Made by a program: the position numbers. From IMG/VR virus record IMGVR_UViG_3300048620_000004: a stretch of 22,049 nucleotides of DNA; one strand, written 5' to 3'. Shown here one piece after another: positions 9,301 through 12,300 of the stretch (position 1 is the first letter of the stretch; each line of letters starts with the position of its first letter). The DNA comes from a virus (Duplodnaviria > Heunggongvirae > Uroviricota > Caudoviricetes).

Positions 9301-12300
9301 CTCTGGCTGATATGCTCAAGGTCAGTGACAGTCAGGCCATCACTGCAATTCATTCCGAGATAACGCGCTGTCATAGAGGGCTCCCGGTTGTGCCGCCGCT
9401 GTCGCCGGGGTGTTTATGGGTATGCAGTACCTTACCGTTTGATGAGAGTTCACCGCCGGTGTGTTCAATGTTGCCGCGCATCGTCCCGCCCTTCTGCACT
9501 TCCAGCGTGCCGGTAATCAGCCTGTTGGTGCAAACCACCTCCGGTGTGTCCAGGGTGACGCGGGTTGATGCTTTCACCATGACCACCGGCACCGTGGCAG
9601 TAACAGAATCAGAAGCCGTCACGCTGGCCGTTTTAATTCCGCTTACCGTGAGTGCACTGGTTTCGGGTTCATACTCAATCACCGCCCCGTCAGGGAAACG
9701 GATATGCAGGGCATCCGCCGACGCAGACGGCGCGGGGTTATCGCCGGAATAAATCCCCGGCAGAACGAACGCCGTGTCGAGTTCACCGCCCACAGCCAGA
9801 ATCAGCACCTGTTCCCCCACGGAAGGTGCCCACCATGTGCGCGAACGTCCGGCACGATGGGTCAGCCACTGAAGCCAGTCAGTGCACATGCCACCGGTCT
9901 GCACACGGCAGCGACCGGCTTTAAGGTTGGTTTCGACGACAAGGCCGGTACGAATCATGTTGCGCAGTGCGCGCGCGAGTTCCTGAATATTTGCGAGAGT
10001 GTTCATGCGTGTGAGATTGCACAATATATAAAAGTTATGCTATCTGGATTCATTTGTAGAACGACCATACAACATTCGAGGAGAGCGTAATGTTCAGTGA
10101 TAATGTGACTAATGCGTGGTGGTTTATCTCTTTGTATCTATTTTTATTAATAGCATTAACATTTATTACCTTTGGTAAAAGTAATCTTATGAGGTTTATT
10201 GCACATCATTTCAATTTTGAGTATTCAGACAGAAAGTTAAAAATGCTCGACAAAAAATGGCGCGACATTCAACTATTTAAAATAATTAACGGAATCAATG
10301 TATCAGGCATCGAAGATGTGAGAATGATACAGCAGGGGCTGATTGATGGAAAACTAAAAACATCGTATTTTTTTCTTACTCGCTTCTGGGGTGACATAAC
10401 AAAACCACCACACATAATTAAAACAATAATTGTAATTCTGTCCAGCATTATTTATATTCTCTTCGCATGTTATATACACAACAAACAATCCGCTATAGTA
10501 AGAGATGCCATAGGCATACCATATAAAAATATGATGTACTATGTTTATAGTGACAAAGTTCTTTTATCCTTCAACAATAAAACAGTTGAATTCAATAAAA
10601 CTTATAGCCTTGCCGATTGCAAGAGGCTACGAAACATATTTATAAAAGACACACTTCCTGAGATCGCCTGCAATAAGCTCTTACAGCTAAACGAGGAGGA
10701 CTCGGAATGGTTAAGTCAGGAAATTAAAGATAATAACAGCCAAAAAAAAGCATTATTAATAATATCCCTCATCTATTTCATTTCAGGTCTGGTTATATTC
10801 CTGTCATATACAAAATTCCTTTACGCCAATAAGAAGGTTGTAGAATACAAAGCATCAAATAAAAATCACTCATAAGCCTCTAAACATTGAGCGACCAGCA
10901 TGGCCGCTCAATGTTTAATTGCGCATCAGCCTCTGCCTGGATAAAACTAACGCTCAAGGTGAGCCAGGATAATCTCTTCAATCATCTGCACATCCTCACC
11001 GGTAAAGCCGAGCAGAGGACGCGCCGGATAATCAATTTTCTTACCGTCTTTCCGGGTTTCTTCCGACAGACCGAACTGATGCACACTGGCGATTTTCGGC
11101 GACTTTCCCAGCAGGATTTCAGCCGCTTTGTGCTGGATTTTCTGGTGTTCGGTAATGCGTTTCTGGAAAAGCGTTACAGCACCACCGGTAAGGTCATCAG
11201 ACTGGAAACCTCACCGGCAAAATATACCCGCCGTGGCGTGGAGGAGGATGTTTACTGGTGGGTGCCGTCCTTCAACGAACCGACAGCCTTCGCGCCCGGT
11301 TCCGTGTTTCACCTGCTGGAGCCCGATATTAATCAGGAGCTGTACGGCCTGCCGGAATATCTCAGCGCCCTTAACTCTGCCTGGCTGAATGAGTCGGCCA
11401 CGCTGTTCCGCCGCAAGTATTACGAAAACGGCGCACATGCCGGATACATCATGTACGTCACTGATGCCGTGCAGGATCGCAACGATATCGAAATGCTTCG
11501 CGAAAACATGGTGAAGTCGAAAGGCCGCAACAACTTTAAAAACCTGTTTCTCTATGCCCCACAGGGAAAAGCCGACGGCATTAAAATTATCCCGCTCAGT
11601 GAAGTGGCGACGAAGGACGATTTTTTTAATATCAAAAAAGCCAGTGCCGCAGACCTGCTGGACGCGCACCGCATCCCCTTTCAGTTGATGGGCGGCAAGC
11701 CGGAGAACGTCGGGTCGCTGGGTGATATTGAGAAAGTGGCAAAGGTCTTTGTCCGCAATGAGCTTATCCCGTTACAGGACAGGATCCGTGAGATAAACGG
11801 CTGGCTCGGTCAGGAGGTCATCCGCTTTAAAAACTACTCACTGGACACTGACAACGGCTGAACATCGCCGCCTGCGGGCGGCTTTTTTACACCCCGTCAT
11901 CACGCCCTCACACGCTCACCACCGCACAAAACACCCCGCAGACACACCAACGCCCCGGCGCACAATCTAAACGCCATCACGACGCGCTGAGACGCTAAAA
12001 AATAAAATCAGCACCACCGCCAGCGCGCAGTGCTTTCCCCGCCTCGCCCGCCCGCTTCATGGGGCGGTTTTAATGCGGTTGAATTTTATCGAAAGTCACG
12101 TCACACAAAACCTTCCCTTCACTAAATAGACTCATTATCCACATGCAATCTAATTCAAAAAAATGCATGTATAGTATTAAAGGTCATCAATTAAACCTAA
12201 AGGCAAACCATCCTCACCAACCGAGCTATAATGAGCGATAATATTCGAAAGTTCACCAGTAGAAAACGAATTAGGCAAATCATTATCAACTAATATAATC

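What the first reader, a model, noticed from the sequence alone, without database searches (positions are those of the whole stretch)
10007..10886. AT-rich gene for a three-TM membrane protein replaces the entire P2 head/terminase/lysis module between V and Q
Seen in sequence: V is directly followed by a divergent 261-aa membrane protein gene, then the portal-like gene; none of S, R, lysis genes, K, Y, X, L, M, N, O or P is present. The insert is strongly AT-rich against the GC-richer phage genes, indicating foreign origin. Inference: small prophage-encoded membrane proteins often act in superinfection exclusion, abortive infection or as toxins; this one may be such a gene fixed in a decaying prophage. 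It could also be a third cargo position for this phage lineage.
Basis: partly seen in the sequence, partly recalled or inferred. Interest (0 to 1): 0.55.

Follow-up and report, generated by a model that had tools for sequence, protein, structure and literature searches.

The report
P2 orf30 beside a prophage deletion
The AT-rich membrane-protein gene is the known, nonessential gene orf30 of phage P2, sitting at its normal place in the defective P2-like prophage of E. coli B; it only appears to "replace" the head genes because a separate 8.3-kb deletion next to it removed them, so the finding is ordinary, although the gene's function is still unknown.

Summary
The ORF is real: 10090-10875 (+), 261 aa, 32% GC, three hydrophobic helices. 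It is not an insert that replaced the head, terminase and lysis module. The window is the defective P2-like prophage of E. coli B. Window 7119-11108 is collinear with P2 H-I-J-W-V-orf30-S, and the ORF is 84% identical to P2 Orf30 ("nonessential"), which lies between S and V in intact P2.

The missing module was removed by a separate 8,260-bp deletion. It fused S codon 98 to Q codon 93 at 11103-11108, about 230 bp beyond orf30. A 53-codon S remnant survives. The "324-aa portal ORF" is a chimera.

The S-V locus is one of three known variable regions of P2-like phages. It is empty (about 66 bp) in many close relatives.

New here:
- Orf30 belongs to a small, fast-diverging family linked to Pfam DUF6216.
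- The family usually sits at this same S-V position.
- Predicted topology is N-out/C-in, with a universally conserved cysteine pair in the predicted periplasmic loop.
- Pairwise dN/dS is about 0.45.

No known exclusion or defence family matches. The function is unproven; I lean weakly towards an envelope-level phage-exclusion protein.

Unrelated but more interesting: a (CAGC)n phase-variable glycosyltransferase at 3109-4510.

The parts
9371..10006 (-). Gene V (baseplate spike), intact, 211 aa. The 217-aa TTG ORF that runs to 10024 is an over-extension.
   Evidence: Pfam Phage_base_V plus Phage_spike. 96.7% aa identity to P2 gpV. RefSeq CDS WP_001093750.1.
10007..10089 (.). 83-bp V-orf30 intergenic region. 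It holds the late pV promoter region. The P2-annotated activator (Ogr) binding site maps to window 10048-10075. The orf30 ribosome-binding site is at about 10079-10086.
   Evidence: Coordinate transfer from the P2 annotation. Nearly invariant among 8 alleles. No sigma-70 consensus promoter faces orf30.
10090..10875 (+). orf30 homologue: a 261-aa predicted inner-membrane protein with three TM helices, 32% GC. This is the subject of the finding.
   Evidence: 84% aa identity to P2 Orf30 and 99.6% to Peduovirus P24A7b. phrog_2407 over its full length, E 1.8e-143. Hydropathy. AlphaFold model with pLDDT 83 and pTM 0.73.
10881..10917 (.). Hairpin with a 12-bp perfect stem (AAACATTGAGCG...CGCTCAATGTTT). 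It is annotated in P2 as the putative rho-independent terminator of the O operon, and it lies between the convergent S and orf30 genes.
   Evidence: P2 feature 9397-9433 transferred by collinearity. Sequence conserved in 8 alleles.
10947..11108 (-). S' remnant: the last 53 codons plus stop of the tail-completion gene S. The N-terminal 97 codons are deleted.
   Evidence: The translation ...PKIASVHQFGLSEETRKDGKKIDYPARPLLGFTGEDVQMIEEIILAHLER* is 98% identical to the gpS C-terminus. RefSeq pseudogene 'virion morphogenesis protein, missing N-terminus'.
11103..11108 (.). Deletion junction. P2 coordinate 9206 (S codon 98) is joined to P2 coordinate 945 (Q codon 93). 8,260 bp are missing relative to P2. 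Short microhomology CTT(T)CCC.
   Evidence: blastn against P2 with a 6-bp overlap of the two segments. Three-way alignment. The junction is contiguous in only 11 of 5,426 complete E. coli genomes; those identified are E. coli B-lineage records or records 100% identical to them here.
11103..11861 (+). Q' remnant: portal gene codons 93-344. The first 92 codons and the upstream gene P are deleted.
   Evidence: Pfam Phage_portal on residues 79-307 of the chimeric ORF. 96.6% nt identity to P2 945-1. RefSeq pseudogene 'portal protein, missing N-terminus'.
12030..12048 (.). cos site (19 nt), intact. It marks the boundary between Q' and the TO cargo region.
   Evidence: Window 11103-12048 matches P2 945-1, and window 12030-12076 matches P2 33593-33547. 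cosL and cosR are annotated in P2.

Best explanation
SHOWN. The window is the defective P2-like prophage of the E. coli B lineage. The 261-aa gene at 10090-10875 is the ortholog of bacteriophage P2 orf30, which is annotated 'nonessential'. It lies at its native position between the late genes S and V and is transcribed opposite to them.

Its adjacency to the portal gene is a by-product of a separate illegitimate-recombination deletion of 8,260 bp (P2 coordinates 946-9205). That deletion removed Q codons 1-92, P, O, N, M, L, X, Y, K, lysA, lysB, lysC, R and S codons 1-97. It left the junction at 11103-11108, about 230 bp past the orf30 stop codon.

orf30 is a presence/absence accessory cassette. 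Close P2 relatives have either about 66 bp or about 940 bp between S and V.

SHOWN BY PREDICTION.
- Orf30 is a three-TM inner-membrane protein with predicted N-out/C-in topology.
- It has a well-conserved cytoplasmic helical loop of about 80 aa.
- It has a periplasmic domain of about 90 aa, a four-stranded beta-sheet plus helices, with a cysteine pair kept in all 26 family members examined.
- It belongs to a small, fast-diverging family linked to Pfam DUF6216. Most members whose context could be read sit at this same S-V position in P2-like prophages.

INFERRED, about 0.35 probability. Orf30 is a prophage-expressed lysogenic-conversion protein that acts at the cell envelope against incoming phages or phage-tail-like particles. 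The mode would be like that of P22 SieA: an inner-membrane protein interfering with DNA delivery across the periplasm and inner membrane. The variable periplasmic domain would be the specificity element.

The stated confidence applies to the identity and architecture part, not to this functional inference.
For: Identity and position:
- Window 9300-11109 is collinear with P2 W-V-orf30-S at 94% identity, and with P24A7b at 99.9%.
- The P2 annotation places orf30 between S and V.
- Protein identity to P2 Orf30 is 84%.
- The region is 100% identical to E. coli B strains.

Deletion:
- blastn map against P2 and junction alignment.
- S' translation.
- RefSeq pseudogene calls for S' and Q'.
- The junction is contiguous in only 11 of 5,426 genomes.
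- Strain H1827/12 carries the same prophage with a smaller nested deletion, P2 1139-8060.

Cassette nature:
- Spans of 2,872 versus 3,746 bp for a J-W-V + S-R probe across phage records.
- The empty site has an unrelated 66-bp spacer.
- Literature names the orf30 region as one of three variable regions.

Real gene under constraint:
- Present in 464 of 5,426 E. coli genomes, full-length in 461, and in 21 phage records.
- Median pairwise dN/dS is 0.45, and 0.27-0.38 in the two soluble loops.

Family, synteny and topology:
- 41 clusters in the representative library.
- A V-S position for P0046, P0007, P0027, P0028 and L024; P0037, on a 1.7-kb contig, abuts S only.
- P0028 passes the DUF6216 gathering score, 28.9 against 27.3, over its full length.
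- No Lys or Arg in the N-tail, basic loop 1 and C-tail, and two Cys in loop 2 in 26 of 26 members.
- AlphaFold model with pLDDT 83.

Analogy to SieA:
- SieA has three predicted TM segments, sits in the inner membrane, is encoded antisense next to late structural genes, and has sequence types less than 30% identical (PMC10883804; P22 map).
Against: Nothing contradicts the identity and deletion part.

Against the functional inference:
- No match to any PADLOC defence model.
- No match to any function-annotated PHROG.
- No match to P22 SieA by profile comparison, probability 0.2%.
- Fold searches gave only insignificant claudin-like look-alikes.
- No sigma-70 consensus promoter faces the gene within 290 bp, so expression in the lysogen is unproven.
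- Published work found defence systems of P2-like prophages at the TO and Z loci and does not report the S-V locus. These comprise hotspot surveys (PMC9122126; PMC13586616) and one functional selection against T4, lambda-vir and T7 (PMC9519451).
- From my own knowledge, not tested here: E. coli B is the classical permissive host for T1-T7. P2 can infect both E. coli B and P2 lysogens. So at native expression Orf30 does not exclude those phages.
Confidence: 0.88

Rival explanations
1. A foreign AT-rich gene was inserted in place of the head, terminase and lysis module (a cargo swap), so that the gene and the loss of the module are one event.
For: In the window the gene lies between V and the portal-like ORF, and none of P to R is present.
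Against: - The gene, its flanking intergenic region and the terminator are collinear with intact P2 and at least 20 other complete phage records that keep all head and lysis genes.
- The real breakpoint lies inside S and Q, about 230 bp to the right of the gene, with its own microhomology.
- A sister prophage in strain H1827/12 has the identical orf30 allele with S, R, lysC and part of lysB still present.
Confidence: 0.01
2. Orf30 is an abortive-infection effector or toxin. On a cue sensed by its conserved cytoplasmic loop it would permeabilise or depolarise the inner membrane and kill the infected cell, rather than block entry.
For: - It is a single-gene, AT-rich accessory membrane protein in a prophage cargo site.
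- The cytoplasmic loop is the best-conserved part of the family (majority fraction 0.49 against 0.29-0.36 elsewhere), as expected for a part that binds a conserved intracellular partner.
- Other occupants of the locus look defence-like. R18C ORF16 has a Cys/His-rich motif that looks HNH-like by eye.
Against: - No PADLOC or Pfam match to known Abi, holin-like or pore-forming effectors.
- No partner, antitoxin or sensor gene lies in the cassette.
- The conserved periplasmic disulfide-type domain has no obvious role in such a mechanism.
- The gene is carried stably in 464 genomes.
Confidence: 0.2
3. Orf30 serves the phage's own cycle rather than defence. It would be a nonessential modulator at the envelope, for example of lysis timing, of re-adsorption or killing of the lysing cell's siblings, or of lysogen surface physiology.
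For: - It sits between two late operons and directly beside the Ogr-activated pV promoter region.
- Homologues at 20-35% identity keep the same position and orientation in distant P2-like prophages. That is more like a lineage gene than randomly acquired cargo.
- N-out/C-in three-TM topology with a basic C-tail is also the topology of class I holins. This point is from my own knowledge.
Against: - Many close, viable relatives have an empty S-V site, including 186 and PSP3, so the phage cycle does not need it.
- At 261 aa with two 80-90-aa soluble domains it is far outside holin architecture.
- P2 already has Y, K, lysA, lysB and lysC.
- Orphan copies exist in non-prophage chromosomal contexts in Enterobacter.
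Confidence: 0.2
4. In this prophage the gene is a silent passenger. It would be intact only because the decay is recent, not expressed (H-NS-silenced AT-rich DNA with no promoter), and without any current function in E. coli B.
For: - No consensus promoter.
- 99.6% identity to a complete phage record shows little time for decay.
- dN/dS of 0.45 is three to four times higher than for V (0.13), which indicates weak constraint.
Against: - dN/dS is well below 1 in both soluble loops (0.27-0.38).
- All 8 alleles compared, and 461 of 464 genomic copies, are full-length.
- Motifs and the Cys pair are conserved down to about 20% identity. So the family as such is functional. This rival concerns only the B copy.
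Confidence: 0.25

Closest known systems
Bacteriophage P2 Orf30 (AAD03281.1; phrog_2407)
   Same: Ortholog. Same length (261 aa), 84% identity, same flanks (S terminator on one side, pV promoter and V on the other) and same orientation.
   Different: 16% amino-acid divergence, against 2-3% for the flanking V, W and S'. The B allele lies in a prophage that has lost the neighbouring head and lysis genes.
Pfam DUF6216 (PF19723), family of unknown function
   Same: Full-length architecture matches. One family member, P0028 from Sodalis (also at the V-S locus), passes the gathering score. Eight others match below it, several over most of their length.
   Different: The window protein itself does not match the model even at E 0.01. 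The link is transitive, through phmmer hits. The family has no known function, so the link adds no mechanism.
P22 SieA superinfection-exclusion protein
   Same: Works-like analogy only. SieA is a prophage-encoded inner-membrane protein with three predicted TM segments. It is encoded antisense beside late structural genes, and its sequence types are less than 30% identical (PMC10883804; P22 map).
   Different: No detectable sequence relationship (hhalign probability 0.2%). SieA is 162-164 aa without large soluble loops. SieA excludes its own phage type, whereas P2 can superinfect P2 lysogens (my own knowledge).
P2 lysogenic-conversion genes old, tin and fun(Z), at the TO and Z cargo regions
   Same: AT-rich, nonessential genes with orientation opposite or independent to the phage operons. 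They sit at the other two recognised variable regions of P2-like phages.
   Different: Those have demonstrated anti-phage phenotypes and are soluble proteins. Orf30 has no phenotype on record in the sources I could read, and it is an integral membrane protein.
Claudin / TARP-type tetraspan fold

Membership tests
P2 Orf30 / phrog_2407 | Full-length sequence similarity to P2 Orf30 | tested here: met
   84% identity over 261 of 261 aa. phrog_2407 E 1.8e-143, positions 1-261 of 261.
P2 Orf30 / phrog_2407 | Position between late genes S and V, transcribed opposite to them | tested here: met
   Collinear with P2 9206-13195 and matching the P2 annotation. The S' remnant and V flank the gene.
Pfam DUF6216 (PF19723) | Score at or above the curated gathering threshold (27.3 bits) | tested here: not met
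   The window protein has no DUF6216 hit at E <= 0.01. Only the remote relative P0028 passes, at 28.9 bits. The relationship is transitive.
P22 SieA-type superinfection exclusion | Sequence or profile homology to SieA | tested here: not met
   hhalign of the 26-sequence family profile against P22 SieA: probability 0.2%, 11 aligned columns.
P22 SieA-type superinfection exclusion | Inner-membrane location and a block of DNA injection by superinfecting phage | not testable with these tools
   Only predicted: three TM helices, positive-inside pattern and a periplasmic Cys pair. Needs fractionation plus K+ efflux or DNA-entry assays.
Known anti-phage defence systems (PADLOC-DB v2) | Match to any defence-protein model | tested here: not met
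   0 families at E <= 0.1 for Orf30. The three TO-region proteins of the same window hit LmuA, LmuC and LmuB strongly in the same call.
Class I holin | Small protein (about 70-145 aa) with three closely spaced TM segments, encoded in the lysis cassette. This definition is from my own knowledge. | tested here: not met
   261 aa with 80-90-aa soluble loops between the TM segments. It lies outside the Y-K-lysABC cassette. No holin Pfam hit.
Variable cargo ('moron') cassette of P2-like phages | Presence/absence polymorphism among otherwise near-identical phages, with deviant base composition | tested here: met
   S-V spacer is about 66 bp in P24E6b, pro483, pro147, STYP1 and 186, against about 940 bp in P2 and P24A7b. 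GC is 32% against 59%. Literature.

The most novel reading that the evidence does not exclude
The Orf30/DUF6216-like proteins could be an unrecognised third anti-phage or anti-tailocin locus of P2-like phages. They would be a syntenic, rapidly diversifying inner-membrane exclusion protein at the S-V junction, with a disulfide-stabilised periplasmic domain that recognises the DNA-delivery apparatus of competitors. Published hotspot surveys and functional screens, which centred on the TO and Z loci, would have missed it.
Probability: 0.3. Interest if true: 0.45.

Novelty: already known. Interest (0 to 1): 0.15.

Why it matters
As stated, the finding matters little. Both the gene (P2 orf30) and the locus (the orf30 variable region) have been annotated since the P2 genome sequence, and RefSeq already marks S' and Q' as pseudogenes in the E. 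coli B prophage.

The useful results are corrections:
- The gene did not replace the head module.
- The prophage decayed by discrete deletions, at least one of which looks nested, as the H1827/12 prophage shows.

A residual open question is worth a small experiment. orf30 has no known function. It occurs in about 9% of complete E. coli genomes. It belongs to a position-conserved but fast-evolving membrane-protein family that published surveys of P2 defence hotspots do not report. If it proves to be an exclusion protein, P2-like phages would carry three, not two, antiviral cargo sites.

Tried and rejected
- Pfam, NCBIfam and PADLOC on the protein gave nothing usable. There was only a sub-threshold DUF6535 hit on the first TM segment and a spurious antiporter-subunit hit.
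- PDB sequence search with the family profile found nothing below E 0.04.
- The word-indexed homologue search found only 5-7 clusters. The exhaustive representative search was needed to reach the remote family.
- The search for related loci with the broad alignment failed for lack of a conserved stretch. A narrower alignment found only three Enterobacter loci.
- Promoter scans found no convincing promoter for orf30.
- Rfam found no RNA family anywhere in the window.
- R18C ORF16, which occupies the same locus, is unrelated to Orf30.
- Literature searches for an Orf30 function, for DUF6216 and for WP_000490543 found nothing beyond 'unknown' or 'nonessential'.
- I considered a cleavable signal peptide for the N-terminus and rejected it. 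No family member has a Lys or Arg before the first hydrophobic segment, and the model's first helix runs on to residue 40.
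Full report
**1. What the window is**

The window carries the P2 gene order, from the integrase end to the tail end. It runs int, C, cox, B, orf80-83 and A, then cargo, cos, a portal remnant, an AT-rich gene, V, W, J, I and H, then more cargo, FI, and an FII-D fusion.

blastn against the P2 genome gives these collinear blocks:

| Window | P2 | Content |
|---|---|---|
| 1-575 | 24037-23463 | D C-terminus, start of ogr |
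| 563-2190 | 19155-17524 | FII N-terminus, FI |
| 7119-11108 | 13195-9206 | H N-terminus, I, J, W, V, orf30, S C-terminus |
| 11103-12048 | 945-1 | Q C-terminal part, cosL |
| 12030-12076 | 33593-33547 | cosR |
| 16274-20244 | 29997-26027 | A to cox |
| 20558-21922 | 25720-24356 | int, attP |

The stretch 9300-12200 is 100% identical to E. coli B strains: REL606, B, ATCC 11303, AS19 and drug-selected B derivatives. In REL606 the prophage lies between yegQ and yegR.

The window is not REL606 itself. It differs by 24 repeat units, a 2-bp indel and four SNPs.

E. coli B has long been known to carry a defective P2-related prophage, the source of P2 Hy dis. That statement is from my own knowledge, not from a tool.

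**2. Checking the observation**

The ORF at 10090-10875 (+) is real.
- It is 261 aa, with an ATG preceded by GAGGAG.
- Its GC is 32.1%, against 59.2% for V.
- At that composition, an open frame of 261 codons has a chance probability of about 1e-9.
- Hydropathy gives three segments, about 9-28, 110-129 and 221-242.
- No ORF of 60 aa or more lies on the opposite strand, and Rfam finds nothing.

So the parts 'AT-rich', 'three-TM', 'next to V' and 'head, terminase and lysis genes missing' hold.

Two details do not hold.
- The - strand of 10947-11108 encodes the last 53 codons and the stop of gene S (98% identical to gpS). The P2 O-operon terminator hairpin is also still present, at 10881-10917.
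- The 324-aa 'portal' ORF from TTG 10887 is a chimera. Genuine Q sequence begins at 11103 (Q codon 93). Upstream of that, the ORF merely reads antisense through S'.

RefSeq already annotates both remnants as pseudogenes missing their N-termini.

**3. What it is**

The gene is P2 orf30.
- Megablast of 9300-12200 against phage records shows that 9300-11109 runs uninterrupted through W-V-orf30-S of P2 (94.2%), Peduovirus P24A7b (99.9%), P2_AC1, the vB_EcoM-12474 phages and several Yersinia P2-like phages. The portal part matches separately.
- The P2 record lists orf30 (9439-10224, 'nonessential') between the O-operon terminator after S and the activator site of the pV promoter before V, on the opposite strand.
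- The proteins are 84% identical over all 261 residues.
- The only family hit is phrog_2407, of unknown function, over its full length.

The gene is therefore in its native place, not in place of the head module.

The module was lost through a different event.
- P2 coordinates 946-9205 (8,260 bp) are missing.
- S codon 98 is joined to Q codon 93 across a CTT(T)CCC microhomology at 11103-11108.
- This junction is contiguous in only 11 of 5,426 complete E. coli genomes; those identified are B-lineage records or records 100% identical to them here. In the other roughly 1,600 genomes that match, the two halves match at separate places.
- A clinical isolate, H1827/12, carries the same prophage, with identical Orf30, V and LmuB proteins. 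Its deletion is smaller (P2 1139-8060) and lies wholly inside the B deletion. S, R, lysC and part of lysB are still present there. This points to stepwise decay.
- A second deletion of 4,307 bp fuses FII to D at 563-575.

**4. The locus**

I probed phage records with J-W-V joined directly to S-R. The result is bimodal among close relatives.
- 2,872 bp, a spacer of about 66 bp with no gene: P24E6b, P22H1, P24C9, pro483, pro147, STYP1 and others. The spacer is similarly short in 186 and PSP3.
- 3,746 bp, a spacer of about 940 bp holding orf30: P2, P24A7b, P2_AC1 and 12474IV.

The empty-site spacer is unrelated in sequence to the occupied one. The whole stretch from the V start codon to the S stop codon is the exchangeable unit.

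The locus can hold other cargo.
- Phage R18C carries a different 246-aa gene there, on the other strand. It is unrelated to Orf30.
- An Enterobacter prophage carries an Orf30-like gene plus an extra 273-aa gene.

The literature already lists the orf30 region as one of three regions where P2-like phages carry horizontally acquired genes, alongside the TO and Z regions (PMC3091744).

orf30 itself is present in 464 of 5,426 complete E. coli genomes, full-length in 461, and in 21 phage records.

**5. The protein family**

The word-indexed search found only close relatives. The exhaustive search of 1.84 billion representatives found 41 clusters. About 20 of them are full-length proteins at 20-35% identity.

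| Context | Members |
|---|---|
| Between V and S of P2-like prophages, orientation opposite to the late genes | P0046, P0007, P0027, P0028, L024 |
| Abuts S on a 1.7-kb contig; the other flank was not identified | P0037 |
| Next to a portal gene | P0042 |
| Enterobacter chromosomal setting with no P2-like genes within 3 kb (ECF sigma factor, MCP, LacI in L025) | L025, L026; P0005 (contig end, MCPs nearby) |
| Contigs too short to read | P0014, P0022 |

In these distant prophages V is still 75-84% identical to the window's V, while the Orf30 homologue is 24-39% identical. Against P2, V, W and S' are 97-98% identical and Orf30 only 84%.

One member, P0028 from Sodalis, passes the Pfam DUF6216 gathering score over its full length. 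Eight others match below it. The window protein does not. Orf30 is thus a divergent relative of a family that is itself uncharacterised.

Among eight close alleles the median pairwise dN/dS values are as follows.

| Gene or region | dN/dS |
|---|---|
| orf30, whole gene | 0.45 |
| V | 0.13 |
| S' | 0.20 |
| orf30 soluble loops | 0.27-0.38 |
| orf30 TM1 and TM3 | above 1 (few sites) |

This is a real coding gene under moderate constraint.

**6. Anatomy and likely mechanism**

With the 26-sequence alignment, AlphaFold gives pLDDT 83 and pTM 0.73. The elements are:
- helix 4-40, containing TM1;
- three short helices at 48-94;
- helix 109-134, containing TM2;
- a four-stranded beta-meander at 141-173;
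- helices at 174-179 and 189-198;
- one long helix at 202-260, containing TM3.

Across the family:
- The N-tail has no Lys or Arg in any member.
- Loop 1 and the C-tail are basic (16 and 21 K+R per 100 residues).
- Loop 2 has no net charge and carries exactly one cysteine pair in all 26 members (C177 and C194 in the window protein). In three sequences the first Cys is shifted by three residues.

This fits N-out, loop 1 in, loop 2 out, C-in, with a periplasmic disulfide. It is inferred, not shown.

The most conserved part is the cytoplasmic loop, with the motif D-x-Q-L-F-[RK]-x-x-N-G-[IV]-N-V...D-A...G-x-L and invariant G68 and G87. The periplasmic sheet is more variable.

No known mechanism attaches to this fold. 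PADLOC, function-annotated PHROGs, Pfam, PDB sequences and three fold searches gave nothing significant.

The nearest functional analogue I can name is P22 SieA. It is an inner-membrane protein with three predicted TM segments, encoded antisense beside late genes, with sequence types less than 30% identical, and it blocks DNA delivery (PMC10883804). There is no homology to it.

I therefore commit only weakly, at about 0.35, to an envelope-level exclusion role. The rivals are an abortive-infection or toxin effector (0.2), a nonessential role in the phage's own cycle (0.2), and, for the B copy specifically, a silent passenger (0.25; this one is not exclusive of the others).

Points against exclusion:
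- No consensus promoter faces the gene.
- Published work reports defence systems of P2-like prophages at the TO and Z loci and not at this one. These comprise hotspot surveys and one functional selection.
- From my own knowledge, E. coli B plates T1-T7 and P2, and P2 lysogens can be superinfected by P2.

**7. Verdict**

The headline interpretation, replacement of the module, is wrong. The gene and the locus are already known, and the prophage is the well-studied defective P2-like element of E. coli B. Interest is low.

The modest new points are:
- the DUF6216 link;
- the strong positional conservation of a fast-diverging family;
- the predicted topology with a conserved periplasmic cysteine pair;
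- the nested-deletion relative in strain H1827/12.

The most interesting thing seen in this window lies outside the finding. It is a perfect (CAGC)31.75 tract that puts a GT2 glycosyltransferase in or out of frame. Its copy number differs between sibling E. coli B strains.

Noticed in passing
window 3109-4510 (repeat tract 3263-3389): A perfect (CAGC)x31.75 tetranucleotide tract lies between an ATG at 3109 and a family-2 glycosyltransferase ORF (3392-4510), in the AT-rich Z/fun cargo region. In the window the two ORFs are out of frame. Losing one unit or gaining two fuses them into a 465- or 469-aa protein. The same 801-bp stretch spans 705-941 bp in most of 29 E. coli genomes. Among near-identical B strains the differences are multiples of 4: REL606 705, AS19 717, ATCC 11303 761, B-RalR 813, B 817, B-DolR 857. 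RefSeq annotates a single fused glycosyltransferase in five records (749, 761, 857, 917 and 941 bp), all with length 2 mod 3 relative to REL606; records at 0 or 1 mod 3 are annotated as split. This looks like slipped-strand ON/OFF phase variation of a prophage glycosyltransferase, which to my knowledge is unusual for E. coli. One literature search found no description.
   Followed up: partly
window 12177-15866 (- strand): The TO cargo region between cos and gene A carries a three-gene Lamassu / ABC-3C system. LmuA has a DUF676 serine-esterase domain plus CTD8 (14643-15866). LmuC is the MC4 middle component (14144-14656). LmuB is the SMC-like ATPase (12177-14147). PADLOC E-values are 1e-108, 3e-52 and 1e-233. 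REL606 has a 2-bp insertion in lmuC relative to the window, which splits that gene in RefSeq.
   Followed up: partly
window 563-575 (ORF 84-863, - strand): A second deletion of 4,307 bp relative to P2 fuses the tail-tube gene FII (first about 100 codons) to the C-terminal part of D. It removes E, E+E', T and U. The result is a 259-aa chimeric ORF with Phage_tube and Phage_GPD halves. Together with the missing G gene, this means the tail module cannot be functional either.
   Followed up: yes
window 4722-7580 (- strand) and 2190-4722: The tail-fibre gene H is 952 aa. Only its N-terminal part of about 150 aa matches P2. The rest is foreign and ends in a Peptidase_S74 intramolecular-chaperone domain. 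No tail-fibre assembly gene G follows.
   Followed up: partly
L029 (E. coli H1827/12, NZ_CP013031.1 2932924-2937562): A blood isolate carries the same prophage, with identical Orf30, V and LmuB protein accessions. Its deletion is smaller (P2 1139-8060, from lysB' to Q') and lies wholly inside the E. coli B deletion. This suggests stepwise decay or recurrent deletion in this interval. Other genomes (H38-H45) also have Q close to S or lysB.
   Followed up: partly
window 20244-20558: The immunity region (C repressor and operators) is the only part of the early region that does not align with P2. The repressor ORF has an HTH_3 domain. This fits the heteroimmune 'Hy dis' type known from E. coli B, which is from my own knowledge.
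   Followed up: no
L028 (phage R18C) 1971-2711; L024 3945-4766: There are other occupants of the S-V locus. R18C has a 246-aa soluble protein with Cys/His-rich motifs (CGSSDDITREH...CRVCN) that look HNH-like by eye. It is on the late-gene strand and unrelated to Orf30. An Enterobacter prophage has an Orf30-like gene plus an extra 273-aa protein with no Pfam hit.
   Followed up: partly
L025, L026, L005 (Enterobacter spp.): Orf30-like genes (35-41% identity) occur as orphans in Enterobacter with no P2-like genes within the 3 kb read on either side. In L025 the neighbours are an ECF sigma factor, a methyl-accepting chemotaxis protein and a LacI-type regulator. On short metagenomic contigs another family member (P0022) sits next to a DsbA-like gene.
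   Followed up: partly
window 876-2216 (- strand): The 446-aa ORF is the tail-sheath gene FI with an in-frame upstream extension. RefSeq calls the 397-aa form. This is an ORF-calling artefact, not a feature.
   Followed up: no
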